DNA of 64,000 nt from Catajapyx aquilonaris (GCA_000934665.2 KZ538245.1:1-64000), one strand, 5' to 3'. Counted from the stretch's first letter, positions 4,423-63,275 are shown. Notes: generated by a model from the letters alone, not told the origin. Numbers and translations are program-made.

Positions 4423-6432
4423 ATGGTGGGTAAGAAAAGACAGAGGGAAAACTCTGAAGGGACTGTTCAGAAGCCCAAAACAACTGTGCCGACTGTTCGT
4501 TCCTCGGATGATCCTGCTCCTAAGAAGGTGAGCCTACAACATACAAAAGCATACAAAAGGTACCCCCGCGAGCATAGATGGAGACGGCAGCAGGCCCTTT
4601 TTTCACCTTTCTTTATCCGACTCAAATTAATGAACTATTTTTTGGACCGAGTTTGCTGCTTCAGGCGTGTGTTCGTGTATTTATGACAGTATATTTGATA
4701 CCGTAATTGCTGAGATTGACAGAGCAGCCTGCCGAAGGTGCGGGCCTGCCGTCTCCATCTTCATGCTCGCAGGTGTACTGTACATATGTGCACAAGCAAT
4801 GTACGAAACGTACGAGCATACAAAAGCGTATGAAACATACGTACAAACATACAAAAGCATATAAAACATACCAACGTGCAAAGGCGTACAAAGCTTGCAT
4901 AACGTACATAGCGTACTATATGTACAAAACGTACAAACATACAAAAGTGTACAGCATGTACAAACATACGAAAGCATACAATATTATACAAAAGCGTACG
5001 AATGCGAAAGTAGTCAAAGAGATAGTCCATGCAACAATTACAGTGTTGACAGATGAACACTCGAGTTATAACAATATATATATATATATATATATTTTTA
5101 AATGTTATTATTTTTGTTTCCACAGCCTAAGTGGAAGAACCGCGAGCGAGTCTTGGTCTTTGCGGCAAGGCGCATAACGTACCAGGCGCGGCATCTGATG
5201 GATGACCTGCGAAGCATGATGCCGCATTGTCGGCCGGAGAGCAAAATGGAGAGGAAGGATTCACTCTTTGTCGTAAATGAGGTGAGTGCTTCGTTCAATC
5301 AGCGAAGTAAAAAACACATGCTCAGTGACGAAATGTTGCGTACATTATGACATGAAAATAGCTGTTACATTCATGTAGTTACTTTCGACTTTTATCGGCT
5401 GCATTTATTCGGTTGGATAGCACAATTATTTTTTTCACTTATTCTTTCATCGCTTTTGTGTTCTAGATTTGTGAAATGCGGAACTGCCAGAAGTGCGTCT
5501 TCTTTGAGGGACGTAGGAGAGGAGACCTCTACATGTGGATTTCAAGAGTTCCGCATGGCCCGGCCGCTAAGTTCCAAGTGGAGAACGGTACGGACAACTC
5601 CATTTTTGTCACTTTCATTTACATCTTTGCATCAATCTGTTTGTATCCTTCCAGTCCACACGTTGGAGGAGCTGAAATTCAGCGGGAATTGTCTGAAAGG
5701 TTCGCGTCCCCTCCTTTCATTTGACGCCAACTTTGAATCAGAACCGCATTACGCGCTGCTGAAAGAACTCTTCATACAGGTACGAATTATTTGGCAATGA
5801 GTTATTTGCTGATTTTTTTAAAAAAATCCTTTTGATTGTTGTCAACAATGGTTGCTGTGCCGATTCTTGTTATAACCGACGAGTTATACCTGGCCTAACT
5901 TTGGTTAACCAGCCTTGCTCATTAACGACTGGTTTTTCGACAGATATTCGGCACTCCTCACTACCATCCAAAGAGTCAGCCGTTTGTGGATCACGTACTC
6001 ACGTTCACTGTGCTGGATTCGAGGATATGGGTCCGCAACTATCAGTTGGAAGGCGAAGGCGGCGGACTGGTGGAGATCGGACCTCGCATGACCCTCAATC
6101 CCATCAAGATCTTCTCAGGAAGTTTTTCAGGCGAAACCCTCTGGAGCAACTCACATTTTGTGTCGCCCGCTGTCATCCGAAGGCAGATTAAGCAGGTGGC
6201 ATCGATGAAGTATATGGACAGAGTTCAGCAGAGGATGGCCAGAGAAGCCAAAGAAGAGGAGCTGGCTGGTCTTGGATTTAGGATGGATCCGACTGACGAG
6301 GTATTCAAAGGCGAGCCAGGGGAGGATGACATTCAAGAGTTTCATGCAGAGGCAAAGAAGAAGGGCGGAAAGAGGAGGAAGAGGTCATCAAGCGGGAAGC
6401 AAGGAGGGTGGGACGTGCAAGATATTGCGTAA
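4423..6432 (+). CDS. BRIX1: Ribosome biogenesis protein BRX1 (Brix domain); exons about 4423-4527, 5126-5281, 5468-5587, 5655-5779, 5945-6432
   Basis: Spliced translation gives KWKNRERVLVFAARRITYQARHLMDDL...HGPAAKFQVENVHTLEELKFSGNCLKGSRPLLSFD...LVEIGPRMTLNPIKIFSGSFSGETLW, characteristic Brx1 motifs, with GT-AG introns. A probable 5'UTR intron lies at 4303-4420. Confidence 0.95.
4560..4778. mobile_element. MITE inserted in BRIX1 intron 1
   Basis: TIRs gtacccccgcgagcatagatggagacggcag ... ctgccgtctccatcttcatgctcgcaggtgtac, interrupting a catacaaaag minisatellite. Confidence 0.7.
4790..5010. repeat. Degenerate minisatellite (catacaaaag/cgtacaaa)
   Basis: Tandem ~10-bp units; these explain the spurious ORFs at 4661-5177. 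Confidence 0.8.
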
Positions 6433-6841
6433 CGGACGTGAAAATATTGATTGCGAAATAAATTGTTTCTTACTACGTTAAGCACCTTCATTACGTCAAT
6501 ACCTGGTAATACTGTGGCATCGGAGAAGCGAAAAGAACGGCTGGAAAGTCAATGCTCGTACAGCATTAATTCGTACATCAGGTCTGAGGGCAGGATGTTT
6601 ACTTATAAGTACGTAGTAAGAGTTGGCATGCAAAAAAAAAAATGTGACAAAGTTACAGTTGTTACATCAATTGCAAGTTGAAATGTGCATGATCGATCAT
6701 AAACCCATGTTATTCGCATATAATTAATCGCTGTGTTTATGATTAATAATTGACAAGCCGTTAAAGTTGTCAATAGGACCTTGTAAGCAAAAAAATATGC
6801 ATCACACAGATTATCTGCTTATCGGCTTGAAAATGTAGATT

Positions 6842-9098
6842 TCATCTCAGAAAGATTCGTAGATGAGCGGGTTTGGGCTTCCGCAATTTCTGGCTCATTT
6901 CGGTGACAAACACTACGAGAGAAGCTGCCAGTCCCATGCACCAGAAGAACATAACGACTGCGATGTGATAAATATTCAGCTTCTTTCCCTTCCCAGTATT
7001 GAAGTGCAAATTGTTCTTCCAACGGTTTTCTGCCAGGTTGAACAACAGCTTCTGATATGTCTGTTCTTCGTACCACTGATGCAATATTCCAGACTCCAAG
7101 AGTTGCTGGAAGTAGTACTTGAACGTTTGCGAGTACACGGCTCCTTTGTGGGTGGTGGCCACCACAAAGATCTGGTAGTTTTTCATCGGAGCGACCTGAA
7201 AAGTCAGCTCTCCGCTTGGATCCATGAATTCGCCCACTACCCGATATATGAAGAAGCTGTATGCAATGCAAGCACGCTCAGGAATGCCCACAACTTTCTC
7301 CACGCAGGACAGCGAGTTCAGGATGATGTCGGATTTGTTGAACAACGCAATGTGTGTCGGATTCACTATTTGCGTGCTGACCTAAACGTGGTTGGAAAAA
7401 GTTTCAGTCACATTTACGGATTAAAAGAGCTGCGATTACCCCCATATACCTGCTTCAATGCGAGAGAATCAGCGAATGGAATGATAGTCTTGAATCCGGA
7501 GTGATACAACTCGTCCAAGTTCTTGGGCAGTACCTCCAAATGCGGCGTTGCGATGATCCCAACAAGTTTGGTCCTGTAGGCGCAGGTGATCACGATCGCC
7601 AGGATCCAAAACGCAGTGGCGAAGACACGAATATCGTTGGATTCAGGCAGTTCAGGCGGCTGCTCCAGCAGCATCCTTCCAAGAGCAGACATGGCTGACG
7701 TCAACCTGAATGCAAACATATTAAATTGATTGATTGATTGATTAATAGATAGATAGACAGATGCATTGATGGATTGATTGATTAATAGAGAGACATGAAT
7801 GAATGAATGAATTGTTGATTGTTTGATAAATAATTAATAATTATTGAGATATTAATTGATTAATTGATTGATAGGTACCAACCTGAATGTGTACAGCCGC
7901 CGATGCCCAAGCTTCCAGAGGACAAAGATGCAAAGTACGACAGAGACGCACAAGTAGATCCAAGTGACTTTTGTCAGAGGCTCGAACAGAAGGTTCCATC
8001 TGAAGGACTGTCTGGGCAGAGCGGTGACGAACGTGATGTGGAAATAGTAGATCGGGTGTGTCACTTGGATGTACTGAAGAGCTTCTGGGACCAGGACGTA
8101 GATGAAGCCGCATTCAGACCTCTCTGCGTACAGCTCCCCGATGGTGCCCATCCACGATCCGTTGTCCATTTGGTAGTCCCATTTCTCCTCGGTCACAGTC
8201 GGCTGTCTGATTTTGACGTGGGCGTCCAATGCGTCCTCCAAGTGGACGCAGAACTTCTCAAATGGAGTGAGACGATGGTTCCCCAATGTATGTCTGATGT
8301 GACGGGCATTCGTTGTGTCTATCAGCTCGAAGTGGTTGAAGACAATGCTGAGGCCATGCAGACGTCGTGACATATCTGGGTAGTAGTAGTGACCTCTCAC
8401 AGTCTTGTGGGGGTAACCAACAAGTCTCAAAGGCGAAGGAGAACCAGAGTCGCAGTAGAAGCATGTGGTTTCCATGCTCAAAGCTTGTGCAGTGGAATTG
8501 TAACTGTGTGAGACAACATCAGAATATTAGTAGCTGTAAAATGGGACAAATCTTTGTTGTCAACAACTCACCTGGAGGCCAGCTTGAATCGGATTCCTGC
8601 TGCTGGATGTTGTGTAAACATCCCCTGTGGATCTCCACGTCTGAAGTGAACCAGAAAGTAGTCGTCAAGATTCCTGATGCGAACGTGGGCTATGGCATGG
8701 AGTATCATTTTGGTGAAATCTTGAGGATCTTCCAACACGAAGAGGTTGAGGGCGCATGTACCACCAGGTGATAGCCTGGACTTCATCTCTGGAGGCATTG
8801 TCCGAAATGAGTTCATCTGCTCCTCCTTTGTGATGGCCAGATACTCGTTCCATGGCTTTGGGGTCAGCTTGGTGTGCTGACCAATACTGAGAGACACTGA
8901 TGGCCTATAGGACAGTCTCAGTGGGACGAATGTGTCATTATCTGATTTGACTATCACCAGGGAACAATCAGAGTGCTCCAATTCGCGCAGAAGGTCTGAA
9001 ACCAGCTGGTTCAGGACATGATCTTCTTCAGATTCAGGAGTGGTTGACGGTAACCCAAAGGTCACGGTCAGCCAGAGAAGAGACAACCAAGCCCACAT
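6842..9098 (-). CDS. Divergent ionotropic (chemosensory) receptor IR-A; introns about 8505-8571, 7706-7882, 7382-7449
   Basis: Signal peptide MWAWLSLLWLTVTFG; S1 motif DNGSWMGTIGELYAERSE; LFEPLTKVTW (pre-M1); GRMLLEQP (pore); FWILAIVITCAYRTKLVGII (M3); LLESGILHQW; M4 helix at the C-terminus. Confidence 0.88.
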
Positions 9099-9489
9099 TA
9101 TGCAGAGAAGTTGACAAGTACGTCTAACTTGAAGCACATACAGCGCAGTAACTATCAAAAAAAAAAACAATTTCGGAAAGTGCTCGAACTGCTATTAATA
9201 GTGCTCAATGCTCATTTGGCTAATAGCTTCGAAGCACTTAATGATAACTGGGTACTGTGACACATTCACCCCTATTAACAATGTATAAGACATTCACTTT
9301 CGCATATGATTTGTGCTAAATAAATATGCAAAGATTGATCATAATAATTTTTTTACATATCATATGATATCGATGGTGCTACAGGTGTTATGATGTTGTG
9401 ATGCAATGTTTTTAGGAATTTTAAGAAAGTACTATTAGTAAGTGCTCAGAAGTCAATAATGCATCGGCACTACTTGTAGCGCATACGAG

Positions 9490-9865
9490 GTCACGGATCG
9501 TCTCTGATAGTCACGGATCGTCATGGATGGTCCCTGATAGTCACGGATAGTTACAGTCACGGATCGTCACGGATAGCCACAGATAGTCACAGATGGTCAC
9601 GGATAGTCACAGTCACGGATAGCCACGGATCGTCACGGATAGTCATAGTCACGGATCGTCACGGATGGTCACGGATAGTCACGGATATCTACCGATAGCT
9701 ACGGATAGTCAATGATCGTCACGGATAGCCACGGATAGTCAATGATCGTCACAGTCACGGATGGTCACGGATAGTTTCACAGTCACGGATCGTCATGGAT
9801 GGTCACGGATAAGTCAATGATCGTCACGGATAGCTACGGATAGTCAATGATCGTCACGGATCGTA
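9490..9865. repeat. 10-bp tandem minisatellite (tcacggatag/tcacggatcg)
   Basis: Directly visible tandem units between IR-A and IR-B. Confidence 0.9.
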
Positions 9866-9962
9866 AATATCAGAAGATTACAGGAACATTTCCAGGACTT
9901 AGAGTATAGACAGAGCAAATTGTGTTTGTTGTGAGCATTAGTAACATTGGTGATGTGAACAT

Positions 9963-12576
9963 TTATCTAAGAAAAATCCTGAGGTGTGCTGGCTTAGGTT
10001 TTCTGAGTCCACAGCATGTCTCACTGACAAACCCAAGGACTGAAACAGCCAGTCCCATAAACCAGAAGAAGAAGACCACTGCGATGTGCATCATCTTCAA
10101 CTTCTTTTCGTTTTCAGCCTCGTTCTCATCATCATCATCCTTCTTTTTCCATCTGCTATCTGCCAGGTTGTACAGCTGTCTCATGAACGTCTGCTCCTTG
10201 TACCACTGTGGAAGTATCCCAGACTCCAGGAGCCTTTGGAAGTAGTCCCTGAAGGCTTGTGCATACACTGCTCCGTTGTGAGTTGTGGCCACCACGAATA
10301 TCTTGTAGTTCTTCATAGGAGCCACCTGAAATGTCAGCTCTCCTTTTGGATTGATGAACTCTCCAACGATCCTGTCTATGAAGAAGCTGTAGGCGATACA
10401 TGCGTACCCTGGAGCTCCAACAACTTGCTCCACACACGACTGGGAGTTCAGGATGATGTCTGACTTGTTCAACACCGAAATGTGATACGGATTCACAATT
10501 TGGGTGCTCACCTGAAAACATCCTGTAAGTTAGGCTTCCTGTGCATTCGTGATGTCTGAAGTGTAGCTCTGAATAGTCAGGATGAAACTAACCTGCTTCA
10601 GTGCTAATGAATCAGCAAACGGGATGATCGTTTTGAATTTGGACAAGTACAGATCGTCCAAGTTCTTCGGCAGCACTTCCTTCTGTGGTGTGGCTATTAT
10701 CCCTACCAGTTTGCTTCTGTACCCACATGTGATCACGATGGCCAGGATCCAAAAGGTGGTCGAAAAGATTCGGATGTCGTTCGAATCCGGGAGAACCGGA
10801 GGCTGCTCCATCAGCATCCTTCCAAGGGCAGCCATGGCCGAGGACAACCTGAAGGTGTAAGATCGCCTGTGACCCAGCTTCCAGAGGACCAGAGAACAAA
10901 GCAAGACGCTGGCACACAGGTACATCCAAACTTCAAAAGTCATAGGCTCGAACAGAAGGTTCCATCTAAAGGACAGTCGAGGCAGGGCTGTCACAAAGGT
11001 CAGATGGAAGTAGTAGATCGGCTGGGTCATCTCGATGTAAGGCACAGCTTCTGGGACCAGCACGTAGATCAACCCTGCCTCTGACCTATTTGATGAAAAA
11101 AATCATAAATCATATTTTGAGTCGTTCGCAACAATGTCAGAAGAGGCGCAAGCATTCGATTTCCGCGTCTCTCTGTTTGGTGCGTTGCCAAGGATGGCGG
11201 CCATCTTGAAGTGTGGGGAACGCCAACGAGGTGTAAATAGGGTACAGGCAAAAATAGGGTCCGCCATCTTTGATTCGCGCGTGTTCTTGCCATGTAGTTG
11301 CCATGGCCGCTAAAACCATCAAAGATGGCGAACCATATTTTAGCCTGTACCCTATTTATACCTCGTTGGCGTTCCCCACACTTCAAGATGGCCGCCAGCC
11401 TTGACAACGGCCCCAAACAGAGAGACGCGAACATCAAAGGCGCCGACAGAAGTTTGCGCCTCTTATGTTGACAATGTACTGACCTTCCGGCGTACAGCTC
11501 TCCAATGGTGCCCATCCACGATCCGTTGTCCATTTGATAGTCCCATTTCCCTTCTGTCACAGTCGGCTGTCTTATTTTGACGTGGGCGTCCAATGCGTCC
11601 TCCAAGTGGATGCAGAACTTCTCAAATGGAGTGAGACGATGGTTGCCCCATGTACGTCTGATGTGACGGGCATTCTTTGTGTCTATCAGCTCGAAGTGGT
11701 TGAAGACAATGTTGAGACCATGCAGACTTCGTGACATATCTGGGTAGTAGTAGTGACCTCTCACAGTCTTGTGGGGGTAACCAACAAGTCTCAAAGGCGA
11801 AGGAGAACCAGCGTCGCAGTAGGTACAAGTTGTCTCCATGCTCATAGCTTGTGCACTAGCGTTGTAGCTAAAAGGCATTGTATGGTATACACGTACTAAC
11901 AGTTTAGACATTTTTTAAAAAAATAAAAAAGTGTAGTTTTCAGACTGTTCCCATGAACCATCAGCATGTAAGACGTCAGCCAGGACATACAAACATACGG
12001 ACACACATCCTTTATATATACCATGAGAGAAAGATTAACTCACCTTGATGCAACCTTCAATCTGATACTTGCACTTGGATGCTGTACGAACAACTCTTGA
12101 GGATCTCCCTTCCTAAAGTGCATTAGGAAGTAATCTTCGAGATTCCTGATGCGAACGTGGGCTATGGCATGGAGTATCATTTTGGGGAAATCTTGAGGAT
12201 CTTCCAACACGAAGAGGTTGAGGGCGCATGTACCACCAGGTGATAGCCTGGACTTCATCTCTGGAGGCATTGTCCGAAATGAGTTCATCTGCTCCTCCTT
12301 TGTGATGGCCATGTACTCGTTCCATGGTTTCAAAGTGTGCGTTGTCTGTTGTCCGATGTTGAGGATCACAGTAGGCCGGTACAAGAAGGACTTTCCAGTG
12401 AGATAGCTGGCATGACCTGATCTGACTAGCACCAGTGAGCAATCGGAGTTCTCGAGGTCACGTAGCAGGTCATATGTCAGCTGCATCAAAACTTGATCTT
12501 CTTTGGAGTCAGTTGTAGTAGTTGAAGGTAACCCGAAGGTCACCACGAAGCAATTACATATCAGTAATATCCACAT
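9963..12576 (-). CDS. Divergent ionotropic receptor IR-B, tandem paralog of IR-A; introns about 11869-12043, 11086-11483, 10512-10592
   Basis: Same motifs as IR-A, with long near-identical stretches and an identical C-terminus LRKPKPAHLRIFLR. Confidence 0.88.
11145..11468. mobile_element. Dispersed fold-back repeat filling the IR-B-specific intron; second copy at about 62961-63275
   Basis: Internal inverted arms (cgcgtctctctgtttg..gatggcggccat..gaagtgtggggaacgccaacgag) and high similarity to 62961-63275. Confidence 0.8.
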
Positions 12577-12624
12577 AACCTGTAGTACACAAAATGTACT
12601 GTCACTTCTATAGGATAGTGTCAG

Positions 12625-12685
12625 TGAAGCTCAAAATAGCCTCCAAGAAAGGCATAGCCTTTCTTGGAGGCTATTTTGAGCTTCA
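12625..12685. repeat. Perfect 29-bp inverted repeat with a 3-nt loop upstream of IR-B
   Basis: tgaagctcaaaatagcctccaagaaaggc-ata-gcctttcttggaggctattttgagcttca. Confidence 0.9.
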
Positions 12686-13824
12686 AGTCTGCTAACCTTA
12701 CTATACTATAGTAGTGACTGTTCAGTACTATTTTCATCACAATTTGTGGCATTGTGATTATGATAATGCTACAAAGAAAACAACAACTCTAGAGCAAGCA
12801 AACAATATTCCGACCGGACACACCAAAATCCTAAAGACAAACTTGAAGTCTCCTTGAATGCAATATATGTAATAGCTAATATAATTGCAGGTTTCTGTTG
12901 TATTATCGTGTCGCGGGGGTTTCGAAATATGGCGTTAAGTACAGCCGAAGCACTCAGAGAAATGAGAGTATCAATAATGAGAAAGGTCATATCCTCATTT
13001 ATATAGGGGGTCGAAATTCTTATAATGTTCATGAGTAAAGGAGAGGCTTTTAGTGTAGATGAACTATGTTATCTGGAATATCAGCATGTTGAGCAAGCAT
13101 TGCTGGAATATCATATCAAAAGCACTTGCTTGCGAAATATTATTACGCGATACATGTTCGGAGAAGGTGTCAGAAAAGTAATTAAACACCAGTGTGTGGG
13201 AAAGGGTCAATCACTAAATAATGTGACCTCAAATTGATCGGCTATTGCAATGATAAATGTTTAATTTTGGTAGAGGGGGTCTTGTGGAATTCATTTTGTT
13301 TCTCTGGAAGCCCGCAATCCCTATATATGTTATATATTTTATGTATATATACATAAGCGACAATATTTTTTGTTGGTATGCATGTATGTCACGGCTACTT
13401 AACTCACTTCCACATCTATGAGAGCACAGAAATTTTTCAGCGGAGCTCTCCGCATATTTTTTCTAAAATCTACTTATAGCAAGTTAAGGCAAAGTTTGTT
13501 TGTTTGTTTGTTTGTTTGTTTGTTTGTTTGTCCTTGCGGCAGCGAGTTTTTGTTATTGATTATCAATGGAAACAGACCTTATAGATTCTATTCAAAAAAA
13601 AATTTGCATGACCCCATTGGGATTTACCATAATTATCCTTTAGGGGGGTGAATTATACCACCATCGGAAATTGGAGCCATATAAGAAGATCTTAATTCGC
13701 ATTTCTCCAGGGTATTTTTATTTTTATTTTTATTTATTTTATTTATTCTACCCCATTAGCTGGCCTATTGGCCATTTTTCTCTAGGGTATAGGTAGGAGG
13801 GGATGTGCAAAGTGCAAGTGCAAT

Positions 13825-32853: not shown

Positions 32854-32928
32854 NNNNNNNNNNNNNNNNNNNNNNNNNNNNNNNNNNNNNNNNNNNNNNN
32901 NNNNNNNNNNNNNNNNNNNNNNNNNNNN
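32854..32928. other. Assembly gap (N run) inside the TRAM1/Ars2 divergent promoter region
   Basis: 75 N bases next to G-runs; YY1-type motifs (aaatatggcggc, aaacatggcgg) at about 33003-33041; probable non-coding Ars2 exon donor at about 33202. Confidence 0.9.
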
Positions 32929-44563: not shown

Positions 44564-47500
44564 ATGTTTGGACTTGCATCTTGTCTGTTGGCCGCACTTT
44601 TGATTCAAGTGATGGGGTCGACAAAAGTGACATTGACCTCTGCAGGTCACCTGGAGGACCTCATGTTTGACCTGGTTCAACATGTGTCAGCTGAGGACTG
44701 CTCGTTGGTCCTTGCATGGGACGGACCTGTTATGTCCGAGTCCCTCCAGAAGCTTCTGCGTGTCTCGGGTCAGGTCAGGTACCGACCTGTTGTGACCACC
44801 AGGATGACCTCGTTTGAATTCAACTGGCGTGACTACCCTGGTGTACGGTCGGACGACTGGTTGTACTCCTTCGACACCATGCCTCCAGAACTACGGTCCA
44901 ACCTGTGGCCAGGCCCGTGCTCCTTCAACTTACTGGCACCTAGTACTGGGTGAGTCATACTCTGCCAGTGGATAGATTGGACCAATAAGAATCGAAAATG
45001 TAGAGGCGTGAAATGTCGACAAACTAACCGTTAACGATGTACAGAGCATCAAAGACAGCACTGCCGTCAGATATGAGAAGACCGTAACTCATTATCCACT
45101 TCCCTTGCGGCGAGAAAAGACATCAAGTGTTACCGAGAGCATCCAAGAGGTGGCGTTGGGGGAAGGGGGAAAAAGGAACGGCATCCCAACTCCACCTGTT
45201 GGGTGCTTTTGGTACCACTGCTTTTTTTCTCGCCGCAAGGGGAAGTGGACATTGAGTTACGGTCTTCTCATATCTGACGGCAGTGCTGTCTTTGATGCTC
45301 TGTACATCGTTAACGGTTAGTTTGTCGACATTTCACGCCTCTACATTTTCGATTCGTATTGGTCCAATCTATCCACTGACTCACTCTGCAGATCCGTACG
45401 GCAACTCGTGGTACACTTGGCGTCCGCTGTCCGTACTGTGAATCTCCGTGACAAGTTCATGTTCTGGATGCCGCCGAAGACATCACCGACGTTCATGCTG
45501 GATCCGCCGTTGAATGGTATCCGGCTCAAACTGGCTGCCGTACCGGTACGCAACGCCGTACAGTTAAGCACCATCTGTTTCTACTGCAACAACGGTGAAC
45601 CTACGATACTCGATCTCGGACGACACCGGTCCAACATTGCACTTCAGACCAGTGCATCGTTGTACCCCGACAACTCCCGGAACTTCTACGGGAAGACCGT
45701 GTCCATATGCAACATCGTGGACGTCGATCTGTCCGGAGCACGACGTAACCTGGAAGCGGGCAACACCCACGCTCTGTCGATCCAACAACGGATGGTGACA
45801 ATGTACGAAGACTTCTTCAACTTCACAGCCACCATATACGTACCGGAGCTGTCCGAGAACATACTGGAGTCACGTCTACCCAACGGAAGCTGGAGCGGTT
45901 CGGTGGACACGATCCAGACTGGGAAGGCCGTCGGTGTGCTCATATCGTACATCACATCCGAGGCCATACCTTTCGTCGAGGTGCTGTACCCTCTGGTCCC
46001 ATCGTACCTGTCATTCGTCACCAGAAAGGCCAGGGATGTCATCAGGGTCACGGTGTTTCTGGCCCCGTTCACCGCAGTCACATGGGGCATGATCACCGTG
46101 GCCATCGTGGTATCGCTGCTCTTCATGTACGGCGTCGTCAATCGCAGGTGCGGTCCACCGACGACGACCCACCAGATGTCGCTCAGGAAGGCTCTTCAGG
46201 TACGGGCTTAATCCTATTCGCATCGTCAAAAGCGAGAGGAAAGTGGACCCGTTCCGGAACAGGCACACGTCCATGTAGATCCGTTCTGGAACCGATCCAC
46301 TACTTCCATAGAGCCGTTCTGGAACCGGCCCACTTCCATAGACCAGTAACAGGCCCAACTTCCATGCAGACCCGTTCCGGAACCGGCCCACTTCCACAGA
46401 CCCGCTCCGGAACCGGCACACGTCCATATAGATCCGTTCTGGAACCGATCCACTACTTCCATAGAGCCGTTCTGGAACCGGCCCACTTCCATAGACCAGT
46501 AACAGGCCCAAATTCCATGTAGACCCGTTCCGGAACCGGCCCACTTCCACAGACCCGCTCCGGAACCGGCACACGTCCATATAGATCCGTTCTGGAACCG
46601 GTCCACTTCCACAGACCCGCTCCGGAACCGGCACACGTCCATATAGATCCGTTCTGGAACCGGTCCACTCCCATAGACCTGTTCTGGAGCCGATCCACTA
46701 CTTCCACAGACCCGTTCTGGAACCGGCCCACTTCCATACGACCAGTTCCAGAACAGGCCCAACTTCCATAATTATATAGACCCGTTCTGGAATCGGTCCA
46801 CTTTTAAGGTTCCCCGAAGGAAGAAGAGAGTTACCGAGATAAATTATTATCATCAAATTTCGTGGTTTCATTGATGCCTTGGCATGGCAACCGGTTGCCG
46901 TGGAAAACCCGGTTGCCATGGTAACGGAGCTTATTGGGGGCGATAAGGAATAAGCAAGAGCGAACAAACAAATGTCGCTTTTTATCGTTTGTGTCATGGT
47001 AACCAAACATGGACAAACGACGAACCAAATGAACAAACATATTGTCTTTTTATAAAATGGCATGGCAACCGGTTGCCATGGAAAACCATATGGTAACGAA
47101 ACCTGGACAAGGAAGCAAGCGAACGAACAAACATTGCTTTTTTTTATCATTTATATGACATATGGCAACCGGTTGTCATGGTAATCGAACCTGGACAAGC
47201 AAGCAAGCAAGCAAACGAACAAACGAACAAACCGCTGCCTTTTTTCATATTTACATATGACATTGCAACCGGTTGCCATGGCCCATATGGTATAGTAGCC
47301 AAACATGGAAAAGGCGAACACACGAACGAACGAACACGTTGTCTTTTTTTTTATCACACATGGCATGGCAACAGGTTGCTTGTCCAGGTTTCGTTACCAT
47401 ATGGCAACCGGTTGCCATGGAAAAAACGAGTTGCAATGGTAACGATAACCTGAACAAGTAAAAGAGCAAGCGAACGAAAAACAACCAAACATTATTGCCT

Positions 47501-48752
47501 TTTTATAATACAAGTAAGGATAGAGATATTTTGAAGCCCATTATCTCGGTAACGATGCTTCGGAGAGGTCAAATGTCATATCTTTACTGACATGATGTGA
47601 CCCCTCCTGACCTATAACGAGTCCTCAGAAGTTGTGACCTGTACCCAGCACACTGTATATTATATATAACTTTCCCCTCAGGTTGTTCTTCGCGAATTTG
47701 TGGAGCAGTCGATGCCGTTGCCGGACATGGACGCCCTCCGATGCTTCTTCGTGTTCCTGGCCTTCTTCGCCGTCGTGGTCGTCTGCGGCTACAAGTCCAA
47801 GCTGGTCGCGTTCCTGACCTCCCCGGACAAGGAGGTGGTGCCCAAGACCTTCTCGGAGCTGGTCTCCTCGGGCTGGGACGTCGGGATGCCCTTCATCGAC
47901 TTCACAGCCATGCACATCATGTCCAAGTCCGTCCAGTCCGACATGAGCTCCTTCCTCACCAACACAGCCGAGAACGTCGGTACCATCCGGAAGTGCTTCA
48001 GAACCGTCCTGGACGACGACTTCGCCTGCGTGGCCTACGACTACTTCCTGGAGCTGGAGAGAAACAGCTTCATCACATCTGACGGCACATCCAAGGTCTG
48101 TCCAAGTCTGAAACATATAGAAAAACAAACCGGAAAATGACGTAAACGACCAGAAATCATTTTGTGACCCCTAGACACGCGCGGCAACCCACATTGCACG
48201 TGCAATGCGGGTTGCCGCGCGTGTCTAGGGGCACAAAATGATTTCTGGTCGTTTTCCGGGCACAGTCGCACAAACTTGGACGAATTTTGTGCCCCCTAGA
48301 CACGCGCGGCAACCCGCATTGCACGCGCAATGTGGGTTGCCGCGCGTGTCTTAGGGGCCACAAAATTACTTCTCGCTTGTTTTGACCTTCCTTTTCCGTC
48401 CAAGGTGTACTGGTCCAAGGCGTCCACGTACGATTTTTACATCACGTCGATGCAAGGTCGTGGTCAGGTGTTCGCAGTGGCGTACCAGGCCATGCACGTT
48501 CGGACCTTCGAGAGCGACGTGATCATGAAGGCCATCAGAGACGAGATGTGGGGGAAGTTCATCACGTCCTTGTTCCAACAGAGGAGACTCAAGCGGTACC
48601 GGTACTTCACTGGAGACGAGTACATACTCTCCATGTACAAGCTCTCGTCCGTCTTCATGCTCTGGGGTGTCGGTCTCTGGATGTCTCTTCTGGCTATTGG
48701 ATGCGAGGTTGTGACTGGCTGGCTCTGCTTGCCCACACTCTCGGAAGGTTGA
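44564..48752 (+). CDS. Divergent ionotropic receptor IR-C; introns 44950-45391, 46200-47681, 48096-48404
   Basis: Signal peptide; FDTMPPELRS shared with IR-A/B; LPNGSWSGSV, FLAPFTAVTW, REFVEQ, VVVCGYKSKLVAFLT and an M4 helix. Frames join across all three introns. Confidence 0.85.
44966..45378. mobile_element. 413-bp MITE with ~150-bp near-perfect TIRs occupying almost all of IR-C intron 1
   Basis: cagtggatagattggaccaata...ccttgcggcgagaaaa is mirrored by ttttctcgccgcaagg...tattggtccaatctatccactg. Confidence 0.9.
46245..46800. repeat. ~29-33-bp GC-rich minisatellite with higher-order periodicity (gttccggaaccggcccacttccatagaccc)
   Basis: Tandem array in IR-C intron 2; the source of the repetitive spurious ORFs here. 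Confidence 0.9.
46880..47500. repeat. Degenerate repeats built on the palindrome catggcaaccggttgccatg
   Basis: Motif recurs at about 46883, 47060, 47162, 47265 and 47401. Confidence 0.8.
48145..48370. repeat. Two near-perfect palindromes filling IR-C intron 3
   Basis: ttttgtg..ccctagacacgcgcggcaaccc.cattgcacg.gcaatg.gggttgccgcgcgtgtct.aggggc.cacaaaa occurs twice. Confidence 0.85.
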
Positions 48753-52694: not shown

Positions 52695-55409
52695 CAATTT
52701 TTTGATGGTTTTAACTTCACTTCATTTATCATACTCTTATATTGTAAGGGTTGTATTGGAACTACGTCACATTCATATACTAATATATAACCGGCGAGGC
52801 ATTCTTCACATCGAGAGATATACTGTATGTGTAGCTATCTATGTACTATGTACATTCTCATTACGAAAGATCCGACAGATGGAGACCGAGGTAGGGCCTG
52901 CCCCCAGACCAAAAACCTAATACTAGGGCCTTTCAGGTCAAAGGTCAGGCTGAAACAAACCATTGAAAATGCCCTAAAAAGTGTGCCGATTAATTTGCAT
53001 GTGCTGCTGATTTGATGGGACCTATAGTTTAAATAGCACGGTTAAATATTTGGGGGGCTAATGGGTTTGAGAATGGGAACTCCCTGGTATAAGACAAATG
53101 TAGGGACTATGGGGTGCGTAGGGCGGGGGCTGCCGGGATGGACAACAACAAGCGAAGCCACTTGATCATTTTGATTACTTTTTTTTATTTTACTTTTTTC
53201 TTCGAAAAAAGTGACCGCCCCCTCCCATTAAGCAGGTGTCTTAAAAATTTCCAAAAAAAATTCTCCCCTCCCCCTCCTGTCCTCCCCCTCTCCCTCTCCC
53301 TCTCCCTCTCCACCCCTCCCCCCCTCTTCGCTGCTCATCCTCCGACACCTTCTGATGAAGAAGTGTTGGGGAAACTGCGACGAAGGAACAGTCGCCATCT
53401 TGGCCAGAGATGACGGATGCAAATTTTTTTTTTCTTCTTCTTCTTCTTCTTCTCAGACCGCAACCGAAGAAGCCCCGGGATTAGATCCCAGGACCCTTCG
53501 ATCGAGAGTGCGATGCGCTACCACAGAACCACGCTCTGGTGTAACGAGATTGCGTGTGTTGGAAGGGTCTAGCCTATTTACCAGATGCAGTATTCATTAC
53601 AATAATATTTTAAAGGGAAGGAAAAAGGACTTGTACGAGTAGATAAAATCGAAAATCGGGAAAATAATGAGGCAGTCTCCAGAGGGATTCGAACCCGCAA
53701 CCTCAGATCAGGAGGAAGACGCCTTAGCCCCACGCCCACAGGCTTCTTGTATTTTCCTCCCTTGTAAAACATGTACTGCCCATTCCGTCAGAAAATCGGA
53801 GGGAAAATGACTGGGAGGTTTTGGCTATAAGATTTTTATGGCTCCTAATTTATTTATTTATTTATTTATTTATTTATTCGCCTTTACAAATGCAGGTTAT
53901 TAAAATCTACGCCACTTGTACTGTACTAGCAGGTTCCGGCAGGTTCTGGATGCGAGATTTTTTTTATTGGCTCCCTGTTCATTCTCAGAGCATATACCCA
54001 TAGCCTACGAATCTGACGATTGCGAAGATATCAAATGTACGTAATAAGAAATTTAATTGCACTTTGTCACAACATATTGCAAGTTTCAAATATCGTTTAT
54101 TTTGTGCACCATGTCGAATCCACCTGTGGAAGTATGAAATCTTTTATGCTTATACTTATTTAATTGAGAAAAATAATTGGCACCGGTCTGGGATCGAACG
54201 TGGGACCTTACAATTAGCAAGAGAAGACGCTAACCATCCGCCTACAAGCTACCAACAGATATTCATTGCTTGGAAGTTGTAGTTCCTCTGCAGGATTGGA
54301 TTATTAGGCATATCTCTATATATAGGCAGTCTGGTTGCTTATTGATTTGAAAACAATATTATTGATCAGGATTATAACGAAATCATGCCTATACCAGTAC
54401 AGTACGTCATGTTTATGAATATGGAAACTGCTTATCTAGTTACCGACATGTATTGTCTGCTGAGACCATAAGTGTGAGATAACTATTATGAGAGGTGTTG
54501 CATAATGGAAATAACGTGACCTAACAATACATATTGTAATGATGTGTCTCCAACAATCAAATGTATGACAGCATAATCTTTTCCAGCGCATACTGTATTT
54601 CTGGAGAGAACATCATTACCTCATCCTGTAGTTTATTCATCCCAATTTGTCCCATTATCAGGTTAAATGTAGGGTAAAATCATTTCATAATTTTTTTTCC
54701 TTCTATTCAGCTTTATGAAAGTAAATTTTCTTACATAATTTATATTTATAATTATTGTACATCACAAGCCTTTAATTAGAACAGTTACTTACATTTTTCA
54801 CATTATAGTTTACCACAACTCCTTATTCTCTCGTTGAATCAATAATAGGCAAAATTATCTAGAAATTATTGTGAGAAATTGTTTTCATTACTCTTTGAGC
54901 AAATGTGGTTTTTTTTACAAATAATAATTACTTATTGAAATAAATAATTTTTTTTGAGTATTTGTGTTTCATACATTTCAAGTACAGTAGTATGCACATG
55001 CACTTTTATTTATTATAAATAAATCCGGGATATATTTTGTGAACTCTCCGCACATCTGCATTTCCTGACCGGTTTTTCGCAGACATGTTTTTCGCAGAAG
55101 TAATTAATATTGTGAAATTTCTAAATATAGTTTTCAAAGAATTTGAACACATACGCACATGTTATTGCCCTCGGTTAAGTAATATGTTTACGGTTGCAAA
55201 ACAAAATAATACGTGAAGCATGTCTGACAGATATAATAATATTATCCTGTCACAATATTGTCACAAAGTTTACGTCTGGAACACAATGTTAGAAATGTCT
55301 ATTGTCATTGAAATATAAGCGACACTATTCACATGTCAATCACAAGTAAAAGTGGACAGGTCAAATACAAAACAGGTTCCACACAGTTTGAATACAAACA
55401 CTCTGAAAC

Positions 55410-56602
55410 ATGGAGTGCTATCCAGAGTATCCGCACTATTTCACACTAATCGCAGCCGCGTACTGGCTTCTTATCTGCTTCGTCGGAGGGTTTGGCAATC
55501 TCTTGGTCCTAATCGCTCTTCCCTATGCGAGAAGAAGATGCAGCGATCCACGTAGCCCGCTCAAGAGCTGTACGACTGTGTTGCTCCTCAGCTTAAGCCT
55601 GGCCGACTGCCTCTTCTGCTTCATCACCCTCGGAGGATCCGCCATCACCATGTTGATTGGGAAGTGGTACATCGGTTCAGGACTCTGCTACGCAACATCG
55701 TTCGTCAGCCACATTCTCGGCATCGCATCTCCTAGTTCGCTTGCAGCCGCTACGATGAGCCGGTACATATTACTTTCCATGTAACGTAATGTAACGTACT
55801 AATGAAATATCTGACCGTAGGACGATGGAATTGTGGTGGCCGTCAGGAGCTGCGGTTATATTCGAAGCGTACAACGGCATACCGTCAGTCATCGGCGTTT
55901 GGTTACTCGCAAGCATAGCACCAGTACTCGGAGCTGTGAGTTACACACTGCTGTAAAGCAGAAACAAATTGTTAATCGCACTATATACAGGTTCAGAATC
56001 TGTTTGGATACAATCCGATACCTGGATGCTGCGTGATCATCAGCGTGGATCAGACGACGTCAAACATCGCGTACGGATTGTGCATCGGTATCCCTTGGGT
56101 CGTGGTTCTAGTGTGTCTCATACTCATTTGGGTGAAGCTGAGCAAAAATTGGTCGGAGCTGAAGCAATTCAAGTAGGTAAGAGCCGTAAGATGGGCACAA
56201 CAATTAGCTTTTAACGTTTGTTTTTTTTGTTCGCAGAGATGTTGGTCAGAGTACGCTTCGAGAGCTGAAAAACCGGGAGCGGAAAATGGCATTGTTGCTT
56301 ACATTATTGGCCGCAGCTTATTCCAGCACGACAGCTCCGGTCGTGGCTCTTTACGTTTTCAGCGAAGGAGGACCATGGGCCGTACCGTACATTTACTTCA
56401 CATTCTTAATGCTTTACTATTACGCCATAAACGTGTTCCTCTACTTCTACAGGTACGCTTTGTAATAATTGCAGCTGTGACGACGTACTGAATTTTTATA
56501 CATTAATTTTGCAGGATACAGAGCTACCGAGATGCATTTCTCCGGCTTTACAAAGACGCATGCAAATGCGGATGCCGCCAACTGTTCAGATTACGCTCAT
56601 AA
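55410..56602 (+). CDS. Tre1/Moody-like GPCR paralog 2 (short N-terminus)
   Basis: VGGFGNLLVLIAL (TM1), LLLSLSLADCLF (TM2), LCY..SLAAATMSR (TM3), NVFLYFYRIQSYRDAF (TM7/H8); five exons. Confidence 0.75.
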
Positions 56603-56979
56603 ATTTATTTGTGTACATGCCGAACACTGATTTGTATATAAACGAACACTTATGTTGGTGAGTTGTAAGTTGAACCTTTTCCGCAAAATATACGATTAGT
56701 ATTTGCAACAACTTCCTGTAATTACGGCCACTTATTTGCTCAGTCGGTTTCACGATCAATACTCCAAATAGGACATGTTATTCGCATATCAACTGCGTAC
56801 AATGCGATTTAGTTGCGACACTACCATCGACTCTGCTGCGTTTGACACATCGCAAATTGGAGGACAATGTACTCTTCGTGCGGGAGCAACAACATGACCA
56901 TCAGTTTTCTTGGCAGGACAATGCCGTACGTAATTAACTATTGTCATTCCTCCGCCAATCATCGGCTCAGTCTGCTGCA

Positions 56980-58245
56980 ATGGCAAACGGCAGCTTCAAC
57001 GTTACATACTTTTGCGCAAAAGACGACCAGGAGACTTCTCGTGTGTGCCTGACCGAATCATGGGCACCGTCATGTTGCTATCCGCCGTACCCGTCATATT
57101 TCGCCGTGATTATGGGAACGTACTGGCTCATCATGGGAATCGTCGGAGGGTTTGGAAACCTCATGGTGCTGATAGCCTTGCCGTATGCCAGAAGAAAGTG
57201 CACGGATCCTCGTAGCCCACTGAAGAGCAGCACAACGGTCCTTCTGCTGAGTCTGAGCCTCTCGGATTGTCTCATATGCTTCATCGTCATCGGTCCGTCA
57301 GCTATCGTTACGTTCATCGGAAAATGGTGCCTCGGATATAAATTCTGCTACTTTTTCGCCTTCAACTATCATCTGCTAGGATTAGCATCACCGTACTCGA
57401 TGGCAGCAGCTACAATAAACAGGTAATTGGCGATCCAAATTTTTCTGAAATTTGCGTTAGTTGTACAAACGTGTACCGCATTTTCTGTTAATTAAAAAGG
57501 GCGATGAAGCTGTGGTGTCCTGCCGCAACGGACAAGATATTTGAGCCGTACAGCAGTCTCCCGGTAGTACTTGGCGTATGGATTCTATCAAGTTTAGTGC
57601 CCATATTAGCCGCTGTAAGTATTAACAGCGCTACGTACTAATTGCGACTAATGATAATTTTAAAATGTGCAGGTCCATGATGACATCGGATACAGTCGAA
57701 TCCAAGGCGGATGCGTTATAATCACAGCGAACCTTCCGATTTCAAGCACTCTATTCGGAATAGCAATGTGTCTTCCGCTTATTGCGGTGCTTGTTTGCCT
57801 CGTACTAATCTGGATCAGGCTCAACAAAAATTGGTCGGAACTGAAGCAATTCAAGTACGAATTACTTCCCCGATTATTCACGGCACAGTAACCACACGCT
57901 GTCTTATTACAGAGGCATCAGCCAGACTACGCTACAGGAGTTAAAACGCAGGGAAAAGCGAATGGCGAACCTATTGATGCTTTTGGCCGCCACTTATTTT
58001 ACGTCGATTGCACCGATTTTCGCTTTTTACGCATTCAGCGAAGGAGGACCGTGGGTTCAACCTAACATCTACTTCACGTTCCTTACAGTCGACTACTTTG
58101 CGGTCAACGTGTTCCTCTACTTCTACAGGTAAAGGATAATCCGCAGCATAAATCCAACCCGGCTAATTTTCAATCTCTCCGCAGGATAAAGAGCTATCGA
58201 GATGCAATGGCACTGTTCTACAAAGACATGAGCTGTACGAAATAA
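56980..58245 (+). CDS. Tre1/Moody-like GPCR paralog 3
   Basis: MANGSFNVT (N-glycosylation sequons), GFGNLMVL, LSLSLSDC, AATINR, KRREKRMA, NVFLYFYRIKSYRDA; five exons. Confidence 0.8.
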
Positions 58246-58771: not shown

Positions 58772-62625
<3,854 letters not shown>

Positions 62626-62960: not shown

Positions 62961-63275
62961 ACATAAGATGCGCAAACTTCTGTCGGCGCCTTTGATGTCC
63001 GCGTCTCTCTGTTTGGGCCCGTTGCCCAGGATGGCGGCCATTTTGAAGTGTGGGGAACGCCAACGAGTACAGGCAAAAATATGGTCCGCCATCTTTGATT
63101 CGCGCGTGTTCTTGCCGTGTAGTTGCCATGGCCGCCAAAACCATCAAAGATGGCGGACCATATTTTTGCCAGCACCATATATTTATACCTCGTTGGCGTT
63201 CCCCACACTTCAAAATGGCCGCCAGCCTTGGCAACGCCACAAACAGAGAGACGCGGAAATCGAATGTTTGCGCCG
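62961..63275. mobile_element. Second copy of the fold-back repeat found in the IR-B intron
   Basis: Shared sequence with 11145-11468; the ORF-track peptides at both loci match (e.g. RKLLSAPLM..LCLGPL..AAILKCGERQR). Confidence 0.8.

What the first reader, a model, noticed from the sequence alone, without database searches (positions are those of the whole stretch)
7702..7889. IR-A-specific intron bracketed by an 11-bp direct repeat spanning AG|GT: signature of recent intron gain
Seen: on the minus strand the exon ends CACATTCAG|gttggt and the intron ends tgcattcag|GTTGAC, so CATTCAGGTTG (caacctgaatg at 7702-7712 and 7879-7889) is duplicated across both splice junctions of a 177-bp intron filled with attgattg-like low-complexity DNA. 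The tandem paralog IR-B is uninterrupted here (TACACCTTCAGGTTGTCC, about 10842-10859). Established: duplication of an AG|GT target around an insertion creates a precisely spliceable intron (double-strand-break-repair intron gain in Daphnia; introner elements in other lineages). Inference: the intron arose after the IR-A/IR-B duplication.
Basis: partly seen in the sequence, partly recalled or inferred. Interest (0 to 1): 0.85.

Follow-up and report, generated by a model that had tools for sequence, protein, structure and literature searches.

The report
Young intron in a chemoreceptor gene
One of two neighbouring smell/taste-receptor-type genes carries a 177-base insert, flanked by an exact 11-base duplicate of its insertion site, that looks like a recently born intron of a kind already described in water fleas; removal from RNA could not be tested.

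Summary
On the minus strand, CATTCAGGTTG occurs at 7889-7879 and 7712-7702, 177 nt apart, and spans both junctions of a GT..AG insert at 7882-7706.

Removing the insert and one repeat copy makes IR-A collinear with its tandem paralog IR-B, which reads CCTTCAGGTTG uninterrupted. Both genes keep intact ORFs of 647 and 652 codons.

A junction repeat this long is rare by chance: 4e-5 to 5e-4 per pseudo-intron. The nine other introns I could place in the window have repeats of only 1-6 nt.

Synonymous divergence between the paralogs around the site is above 1. A perfect repeat is therefore unlikely to predate the duplication.

The insert is AT-rich (24% GC), lacks terminal inverted repeats, and is single-copy apart from its microsatellite part. 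It is not an introner or transposon.

IR-B has its own paralog-specific intron with a 7-nt AGGTCAG junction repeat, later invaded by a very high-copy MITE.

Best reading: a post-duplication intron gain by staggered break repair with filler DNA, as in Daphnia. It is a new member of a known kind.

Splicing and the state in orthologs remain untested.

The parts
7706..7882 (-). IR-A-specific candidate intron. 177 nt, GT..AG, phase 2 within codon R383, 24% GC. Interior of (CAAT)n-like repeats with a 29-nt internal direct repeat at 93% identity.
   Evidence: Retention would give an in-frame TAA after 11 codons (read).
7879..7889 (-). Upstream copy of the 11-nt repeat CATTCAG|GTTG: the last 7 nt of exon 2 plus the first 4 nt of the intron.
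   Evidence: (D2)
7702..7712 (-). Downstream copy of the 11-nt repeat: the last 7 nt of the intron plus the first 4 nt of exon 3.
   Evidence: (D2)
6842..9098 (-). IR-A gene. Exons 9098-8572, 8503-7883, 7705-7450 and 7381-6842. Intact 647-codon ORF of a divergent ionotropic glutamate receptor-like protein.
   Evidence: model and translation; Lig_chan PF00060 on exon 3, 19.8 bits, below the 30.8 cut-off; best named relatives are iGluR-domain proteins
9963..12576 (-). IR-B gene, the tandem paralog. Exons 12576-12044, 11867-11484, 11085-10593 and 10511-9963. Intact 652-codon ORF.
   Evidence: (Lig_chan 31.6 bits against a cut-off of 30.8 on exon 3)
10842..10859 (-). The site in IR-B homologous to the IR-A intron position, uninterrupted: TACACCTTCAGGTTGTCC.
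11086..11483 (-). IR-B-specific intron. 398 nt, absent from IR-A, flanked by the 7-nt junction repeat AG|GTCAG (+ strand CTGACCT at 11081-11087 and 11479-11485).
   Evidence: (D10)
11141..11468 (.). High-copy MITE-like inverted-repeat element inside the IR-B-specific intron, with a possible 7-nt target duplication ACATTGT. Without it the intron would be about 58 nt.
   Evidence: I1, I2, I4, D13; summed depth about 83,000-107,000 against about 32, loose ends at 11141 and 11468; second copy at 62961-63274
46200..47681 (+). Intron ii of the distant paralog IR-C. 1482 nt, phase 0, junction CTTCAG|GTTGT, about 6 codons downstream of the IR-A site by protein alignment.

Best explanation
The 177-nt segment at 7706-7882 is a young spliceosomal intron of IR-A. 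It was created after the IR-A/IR-B duplication, when a staggered double-strand break within the exon sequence CATTCAGGTTG was repaired by end joining.

The proposed steps:
- The 11-nt overhangs were filled in, giving the direct repeat.
- AT-rich, microsatellite-like filler DNA was captured between them.
- Because the duplicated target contained AG|GT, the upstream copy supplied a 5' splice site (CAG|GTTGGT) and the downstream copy a 3' splice site (CATTCAG|G).
- Splicing therefore restores the original coding sequence exactly.

Shown here: the repeat, its rarity, collinearity with IR-B, the intact ORF, the single-copy non-transposon nature of the insert, and the old age of the paralogs.

Inferred: the break-repair mechanism, the polarity (gain, not loss) and actual removal from RNA.
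For: 1. There is an exact 11-nt repeat across both junctions. Its chance rate is 6 of 24,041 window pseudo-introns including itself, and 4e-5 to 4.9e-4 in simulation.

2. IR-B has the undivided target, matching 10 of 11 nt. IR-A spliced at 7883/7705 aligns to IR-B without any gap at the site.

3. Both copies of the repeat carry IR-A's synonymous A, where IR-B has C.

4. Ks is 1.2-2.4 in the 30-codon windows around codon 383, and Ka/Ks is about 0.1. By my estimate about 9 of the 22 repeat positions are effectively neutral. At 0.6 or more substitutions per site per lineage, the chance of no change since before the duplication is about 0.005 (inference).

5. The two paralog-specific introns have junction repeats of 11 and 7 nt. 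The nine other introns placed in the window have 1-6 nt (exact Mann-Whitney p = 0.018).

6. The intron is 24% GC against 51-52% in the flanking exons, with canonical GT..AG.

7. The 265 codons downstream of the insert remain open.

8. The insert has no TIRs and no other copy in the window. Depth is single-copy, 30-34, over the bin 7785-7981.

9. The features match Daphnia pulex neointrons. That study reports 33 exon/opposite-intron-end direct repeats of 4-12 bp, and internal direct repeats in 55 of 90 neointrons (PMC4202315, passages read).
Against: - No transcript evidence for the 7883/7705 junction could be obtained.
- No ortholog or outgroup gene structure could be obtained, so polarity rests on the repeat and on Ks.
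- The 5' splice site GTTGGT departs from the GTRAGT consensus at +3 and +4 (consensus recalled, not from a call).
- The distant paralog IR-C has an intron in the same M1-pore linker. Its spliced junction, CTTCAGGTTGT, equals IR-B's sequence over 11 nt, although it is 6 codons away and in phase 0 instead of phase 2. This leaves room for an old, slid intron.
- In Drosophila, direct repeats of 5 bp or more flank 26 of 100 conserved introns (PMC3296678). Short repeats alone, such as IR-B's 7 nt, are therefore weak evidence.
- All DNA support comes from one sample.
Confidence: 0.65

Rival explanations
1. The intron is old, predating the IR-A/IR-B duplication, and was lost from IR-B. The loss would be by recombination with a cDNA or by microhomology-mediated deletion. 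The 11-nt repeat would then be chance or the remnant of an older insertion.
For: - In most lineages intron losses outnumber gains (general knowledge).
- Introns flanked by direct repeats are proposed to be prone to precise deletion (PMC3296678 passages; PMC3698931 abstract only).
- IR-C has an intron in the same linker with a similar junction motif.
Against: - The chance of an 11-nt junction repeat is 4e-5 to 5e-4.
- With local Ks above 1, a repeat made before the duplication should have decayed. My estimate of its survival is about 0.005.
- IR-C's intron differs in phase (0 against 2). It lies 19 nt closer to the ungapped R-x-x-x-E-Q anchor, at profile position 48/49 against about 43/44.
- IR-C shares none of the other IR-A/B intron positions.
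Confidence: 0.13
2. The insert is a very recent insertion with an 11-nt target duplication that is not spliced, or only poorly. IR-A would then be a fresh null allele or nascent pseudogene. The AG|GT in the repeat would be incidental.
For: - There are no RNA data.
- The 5' splice site is suboptimal (GTTGGT) and the polypyrimidine tract is weak.
- Retention gives a stop after 11 codons.
- A perfect repeat is compatible with a very recent event.
Against: - The IR-A ORF is intact over all 647 codons, with Ka/Ks about 0.1 downstream of the insert. This cannot exclude a very young event.
- The GT and AG lie exactly where precise restoration of the frame needs them.
- The interior is AT-rich as in the other short introns.
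- The microsatellite arrays are already degenerate (80% matches), which hints at some age.
- No intron-less form was seen in the DNA contigs. Contigs drop rare variants, so this is weak.
Confidence: 0.12
3. The insert is a degraded non-autonomous transposon of a family that makes 9-11-bp target duplications (an introner-like element), not repair filler.
For: - An 11-nt flanking duplication is what a transposase with a long staggered cut would leave.
- Some introner families take both splice sites from the insertion site (PMC9860276 passages).
- The genome is rich in MITEs.
Against: - There are no terminal inverted repeats.
- There is no other copy in the window.
- Depth is single-copy over the non-microsatellite part, 7785-7882.
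- Reported introner target duplications are 3-9 bp.
Confidence: 0.06
4. The intron arose by tandem duplication of an AGGT-containing exon segment, or by intronization of former coding sequence.
For: The length of 177 nt is a multiple of three, and the repeat contains AGGT.
Against: - Apart from the 11 nt, the interior has no similarity to the flanking exons or to IR-B.
- It is full of in-frame stops.
- IR-B has no extra 59 codons.
Confidence: 0.02

Closest known systems
Neointrons of Daphnia pulex, formed by staggered double-strand-break repair (Li et al. 2009, recalled; Li et al. 2014, PMC4202315, passages read)
   Same: [quoted passage not shown]
- Unique, AT-rich inserted sequence with internal direct repeats.
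- No change to the coding sequence.
- Canonical splice sites supplied by the duplicated AG|GT.
   Different: - In Daphnia, gain was shown by presence/absence polymorphism with outgroup polarisation, and the introns were confirmed in transcripts.
- Here the only comparison is a tandem paralog with Ks above 1, in an unnamed protostome that has no close relative in the protein databases searched (best BRX1 identity 57%).
Introners: transposon-derived intron families (Gozashti et al. 2022, PMC9860276, passages read)
   Same: An insertion that creates a precisely spliceable intron, with a target-site duplication providing splice-site nucleotides.
   Different: - Introners are multi-copy families with similar sequences, often with TIRs and 3-9-bp duplications.
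- This insert is single-copy apart from its microsatellite part, has no TIR, and has an 11-nt duplication.
NHEJ-mediated intron gains with filler DNA in Drosophila (Yenerall et al. 2011, PMC3296678, passages read)
   Same: Filler DNA captured at a break within an exon. Direct repeats are expected at the junctions.
   Different: - In that data set, repeats of 5 bp or more were no commoner around gained introns (19 of 77) than around conserved ones (26 of 100).
- Here the repeat is 11 nt and exactly in register with both junctions.
- The source of the filler is unknown.
Divergent ionotropic receptors (IRs) of protostomes (Croset et al. 2010, PMC2924276, passages read)
   Same: Tandem arrays of fast-evolving iGluR-like genes. 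Gene structures are intron-poor and variable: most divergent IRs of D. melanogaster are single-exon genes.
   Different: - These genes are only 21-39% identical to any protein found.
- Only one exon passes the Pfam Lig_chan cut-off on its own.
- No subfamily can be assigned.

Membership tests
Recently gained spliceosomal intron made by staggered-break repair (Daphnia-type neointron) | Intron absent from the homologous position of the nearest comparable gene, with no gain or loss of codons | tested here: met
   IR-B is uninterrupted at 10842-10859, and spliced IR-A aligns without a gap there. The comparator is a paralog, not an ortholog or an allele.
Recently gained spliceosomal intron made by staggered-break repair (Daphnia-type neointron) | [quoted passage not shown] | tested here: met
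   Exact 11 nt, 7 + 4 across the junctions. Chance rate 4e-5 to 4.9e-4.
Recently gained spliceosomal intron made by staggered-break repair (Daphnia-type neointron) | Derived state shown by an outgroup or by population presence/absence | not testable with these tools
   No whole genome is held. No close relatives were found in the protein or metagenome searches. Only one DNA sample was available. Indirect support: a perfect repeat against local Ks above 1.
Recently gained spliceosomal intron made by staggered-break repair (Daphnia-type neointron) | Removed from the mRNA at the predicted junction | not testable with these tools
   No transcript data could be laid on the locus. GT..AG, 24% GC and the open downstream frame are compatible with splicing.
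Introner / transposon-derived intron | Belongs to a multi-copy family of sequence-similar introns | tested here: not met
   No other copy in the 64-kb window. Single-copy depth over 7785-7981. Only the (ATTG)n part draws extra depth, about 27-fold. No whole-genome search was possible.
Introner / transposon-derived intron | Terminal inverted repeats and/or a 3-9-bp target duplication | tested here: inconclusive
   No TIR at the ends. The flanking duplication is present but is 11 nt, outside the range quoted.
Intron by tandem duplication of an AGGT-containing exon segment | Intron sequence is a copy of adjacent exon sequence | tested here: not met
   Only the 11 nt are shared. BLAST of the intron against the window finds itself and short internal low-complexity matches only.
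Ionotropic glutamate receptor / IR family (Pfam Lig_chan PF00060) | Match to the ligand-gated channel domain above the curated cut-off | tested here: met
   IR-B exon 3 scores 31.6 bits against a cut-off of 30.8. IR-A exon 3 alone scores 19.8 bits and IR-C 17.9 bits, both below the cut-off. The best named relatives are springtail iGluR-domain proteins. Exons were scanned singly, not as the spliced protein.

The most novel reading that the evidence does not exclude
This unnamed protostome, probably an arthropod, may be a second Daphnia-like lineage in an active phase of break-repair intron birth.

Two tandem receptor paralogs each gained a private intron bracketed by an AG|GT-spanning duplication. 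A third paralog carries an intron at the near-identical motif CTTCAG|GTTGT in another reading frame. That hints that insertion favours a specific proto-splice motif, giving parallel gains at a hotspot.
Probability: 0.15. Interest if true: 0.65.

Novelty: new member of a known kind. Interest (0 to 1): 0.4.

Why it matters
Clear footprints of intron birth are rare outside Daphnia and the introner-bearing lineages. Here one locus holds three things:

- an insert with an unusually long, perfect junction-spanning duplication;
- an internal control, the paralog, showing the empty site;
- a second, reciprocal paralog-specific intron.

If splicing and polarity are confirmed, the species becomes a candidate for a genome-wide and population-level study of how often break repair creates introns. 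It would also test whether fast-evolving chemoreceptor arrays are favoured sites.

On its own it is a well-formed example of a known mechanism, not a new one.

Tried and rejected
**RNA evidence**
- The look-up of sequencing runs listed no RNA holder. Four DNA rows came from one sample, plus one small run of the same species label that covered only the MITE. Splicing could therefore not be examined.

**Genome and relatives**
- Whole-genome search: no genome is held for this window.
- Word-based protein searches with IR-B exon 3 (near lengths) and IR-A exon 2 (longer proteins) found nothing.
- The full HMMER scan found 124 proteins at E up to 1e-3, all at 39% identity or less. None can serve as an ortholog.
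- Two metagenome scans, with the exon 4 alignment and with IR-B exon 3, gave no confirmed relative.

**Intron-less allele**
- No joint skipping 7706-7882 appeared in the DNA contigs. Contigs drop rare variants, so this says little.

**Rejected readings**
- IR-C's intron as the same intron. It differs in phase and sits at a different aligned position.
- The MITE as creator of the IR-B intron. It sits 13 nt inside the 5' end and 52 nt inside the 3' end, with its own possible 7-nt duplication. A roughly 58-nt intron therefore most likely came first.

**Hairpin between the intron's 3' end and exon 3**
- The arms at 7705-7722 and 7630-7647 pair at 15 of 18 positions (I2), which could hint at templated snap-back synthesis.
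- The fold is not better than shuffles: z = -1.40, with 20 of 200 shuffles as stable.

**Other checks**
- Rfam over 6800-12700 found nothing in the intron.
- Earlier-findings look-ups returned nothing for this genome. They returned one analogous case elsewhere.

**Supplements not opened**
- I did not open the supplements of PMC4202315 (tables S3-S6 on repeat lengths). They may bear on how unusual 11 nt is within that data set.

Full report
**What is there**

Two tandem genes lie on the minus strand. I built their models from the open frames and from each other.

- IR-A has exons 9098-8572, 8503-7883, 7705-7450 and 7381-6842, giving 647 codons.
- IR-B has exons 12576-12044, 11867-11484, 11085-10593 and 10511-9963, giving 652 codons.
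- Both ORFs are intact.

The family assignment rests on three results.
- IR-B exon 3 matches Pfam Lig_chan just above the curated cut-off (31.6 against 30.8 bits). IR-A exon 3 alone scores below it, at 19.8 bits.
- A full HMMER scan of 1.84 billion representatives gave 124 proteins at E up to 1e-3, none above 39% identity.
- Of the 10 hits I looked up, the five that carry a name are springtail proteins, and three of these are named as ionotropic glutamate receptor domain proteins.

The label "divergent ionotropic receptor" is therefore reasonable, but the genes are very lineage-specific. A third, distant paralog, IR-C, lies on the + strand at about 44651-48710.

**The observation**

The 11-nt repeat is exact. 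On the minus strand CATTCAGGTTG lies at 7889-7879 and 7712-7702, 177 nt apart.

It straddles both ends of a GT..AG segment at 7882-7706: CATTCAG|gttggt...tgcattcag|GTTGAC.

The properties of the segment are these.
- Splicing there puts the junction in codon R383, phase 2. It gives ...LYTFR LTSAMS..., collinear without a gap with IR-B's ...SYTFR LSSAMA....
- IR-B reads TACACCTTCAGGTTGTCC uninterrupted at 10859-10842.
- The interior is 24% GC against 51-52% in the flanking exons.
- It consists largely of degenerate tetranucleotide arrays.
- It holds a 29-nt internal direct repeat at 93% identity (D1).
- Retention would give a stop after 11 codons.

Two 3059-nt contigs (runs X1 and X2), assembled independently of the window, carry 6800-8170 with no difference. 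A third contig (run X3) carries it with five allelic differences elsewhere. The three runs come from one sample that may be the assembly's source. This excludes a scaffolding artefact but is not independent biological support.

**Is it more than chance?**

Splice consensus alone makes short junction repeats common. In Drosophila, 26 of 100 conserved introns have flanking repeats of 5 bp or more (PMC3296678, passages). I therefore measured the exact in-register repeat.

| Null set | Pairs with a repeat of 11 nt or more | Rate |
|---|---|---|
| Window pseudo-introns, AG\|GT...AG\|, 40-1000 nt | 6 of 24,041, one being this intron | 2.5e-4 |
| 3 Mb simulated, AG\|GT...AG\| | 23 of 578,568 | 4e-5 |
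| 3 Mb simulated, CAG\|GT...CAG\|G | 4 of 8,178 | 4.9e-4 |

I could place eleven introns in the window: three each in IR-A and IR-B, three in the neighbouring BRX1 gene and two in IR-C.

- The four introns shared by IR-A and IR-B have repeats of 3, 4, 2 and 5 nt.
- The BRX1 introns have 2, 1 and 4 nt.
- The IR-C introns have 1 and 6 nt.
- The two paralog-specific introns have 11 and 7 nt.
- The exact Mann-Whitney test of 2 against 9 gives p = 0.018.

I left out further IR-C and BRX1 introns whose boundaries I could not fix.

**Polarity**

No outgroup could be obtained.
- No genome is held.
- Two word-based protein searches found nothing.
- Two metagenome scans found nothing.
- The flanking BRX1 gene is at most 57% identical to any named protein.

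The argument is therefore internal.

Nei-Gojobori estimates give Ks 0.92 and Ka 0.15 overall. The whole-gene figure is pulled down by two near-identical tracts, at about IR-A codons 88-135 and 193-270 (Ks 0-0.1), which look like gene conversion. In the 30-codon windows around codon 383, Ks is 1.2-2.4 with Ka about 0.1-0.16.

The paralogs are therefore old, and the site has not been converted recently. Roughly nine of the 22 repeat positions are effectively neutral: intron positions outside GT/AG, and synonymous exon positions. At 0.6 or more substitutions per site per lineage, the chance that none changed since before the duplication is about 0.005. This figure is my inference, not a tool result.

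The repeat also carries IR-A's synonymous A (ACA), where IR-B has C (ACC). An insertion after the duplication explains all of this. An old intron lost from IR-B needs the repeat to be a coincidence.

**Mechanism**

Transposon and exon-duplication origins do not fit.
- The insert has no terminal inverted repeats.
- It has no other copy in the window.
- Its non-microsatellite part lies in a depth bin (7785-7981) at the single-copy level of 30-34.
- The (ATTG)n part draws about 27-fold extra depth, as a microsatellite would.
- Its interior is unrelated to the flanking exons.

This does not fit an introner family, which is defined by many similar copies and typically has 3-9-bp duplications (PMC9860276, passages). 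It also does not fit tandem duplication of an exon segment.

It does fit the Daphnia model. There, a staggered break is filled in, filler DNA is captured, and the exon end is repeated at the far end of the new intron. That study found 33 such repeats of 4-12 bp, and internal repeats in 55 of 90 neointrons (PMC4202315, passages).

Because the duplicated target held AG|GT, both splice sites were made by the duplication itself. The 5' site CAG|GTTGGT matches 7 of 9 positions of the CAG|GTAAGT consensus (consensus recalled). That is acceptable but not strong, as expected for a site taken from exon sequence.

**A second case beside it**

IR-B has its own private intron, 11483-11086 (398 nt), where IR-A reads through (ELYAERSECGF). 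It is bracketed by AG|GTCAG.

Seven nt is only mildly unusual: a rate of 5e-3 to 6e-2 depending on the consensus assumed.

Inside this intron sits an inverted-repeat element at 11141-11468.
- Its summed depth in the DNA contigs is about 83,000-107,000 against 32 for single-copy sequence, so it has thousands of genomic copies.
- The contigs have loose ends exactly at its borders.
- A second copy lies at 62961-63274.
- It is set 13 and 52 nt inside the intron ends and has a possible ACATTGT duplication of its own (D13).
- I therefore read it as a later insertion into an intron of about 58 nt, not as the maker of that intron.

**The loose end**

IR-C's intron ii (46200-47681, 1482 nt, phase 0) lies in the same M1-pore linker. 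Spliced, it reads CTTCAG|GTTGT. That is identical over 11 nt to IR-B's undivided site and over 9 nt to IR-A's repeat. The 9-mer occurs nowhere else in the window.

It is nevertheless in another reading frame. It lies 19 nt nearer to the conserved, ungapped R-x-x-x-E-Q...R-x-F stretch. The Lig_chan profile places it at about position 48/49, against 43/44 for IR-A.

IR-C also shares none of the other IR-A/B intron positions. Homology of the two introns would need sliding plus a frame change, so I treat it as unexplained. It may be chance, or a preferred insertion motif.

As background, most divergent IRs of D. melanogaster are single-exon genes thought to descend from retrocopies (PMC2924276, passages). 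Introns in such families may therefore often be secondary.

**Verdict**

The main rivals are:
- loss from IR-B of an older intron (0.13);
- a young, unspliced disruptive insertion (0.12);
- a decayed transposon (0.06).

It is a new member of a known kind. An earlier scan note on another genome (e1-2578201; not tested here) describes a comparable 61-nt insert with a 9-bp repeat in a rotifer transposase gene. The pattern has therefore been met before in this scan.

Interest is moderate. This is a clean example with a built-in empty-site control and a reciprocal second case, but the mechanism is not new and the two decisive tests remain to be done.

Noticed in passing
window 11086-11483 (minus); repeats at 11081-11087 and 11479-11485: IR-B has its own paralog-specific intron (398 nt), absent from IR-A and bracketed by a 7-nt junction-spanning repeat AG|GTCAG. 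It is the reciprocal of the finding.
   Followed up: partly
window 11141-11468 and 62961-63274: A MITE-like element with inverted arms of about 130 nt. Its summed contig depth is about 83,000-107,000 against 32 for single-copy DNA, so it has thousands of copies. The copy in the IR-B intron lacks the outermost roughly 17 nt seen in most copies and has a possible 7-nt duplication ACATTGT.
   Followed up: partly
window about 8694-8837 and 8182-8454 (IR-A), with the matching parts of IR-B: Two tracts where IR-A and IR-B are nearly identical (Ks 0-0.1) inside genes that otherwise have Ks above 1. This looks like recent gene conversion. The second tract ends close to the IR-B-specific intron.
   Followed up: partly
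window 46192-46199 / 47682-47689 (+): The IR-C exon junction CTTCAG|GTTGT equals the undivided IR-B site over 11 nt. It lies in another frame and about 6 codons away by protein alignment. It may be chance or a preferred intron-insertion motif.
   Followed up: partly
window 7630-7647 and 7705-7722: The last 17 nt of the IR-A intron plus the first exon base pair at 15 of 18 positions with exon 3 sequence 57 nt downstream. This could be a trace of templated repair synthesis. The RNA fold is not better than shuffles (z = -1.40).
   Followed up: yes
window 12625-12694: A repeated hairpin-like element upstream of IR-B, at depth about 900 against 32. It gives a weak mir-3170-like Rfam match far below the gathering score (33.5 against 98 bits). 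It is probably another small MITE, not a microRNA gene.
   Followed up: no
window 5102-6432 (+): A BRX1 ribosome-biogenesis gene with introns of 185, 67 and 164 nt lies next to the IR array. It is at most 57% identical to any named protein found, so the organism has no close relative in the searched protein collection.
   Followed up: partly
window 55407-57423 (+) and 59675-60850 (-): Two ORFs with rhodopsin-family 7TM matches, possibly tandem GPCR genes, and a ribophorin II gene. They are unrelated to the finding.
   Followed up: no
window 32854-32928 and 28777: Runs of N (75 and 1 bases). These are assembly gaps.
   Followed up: no
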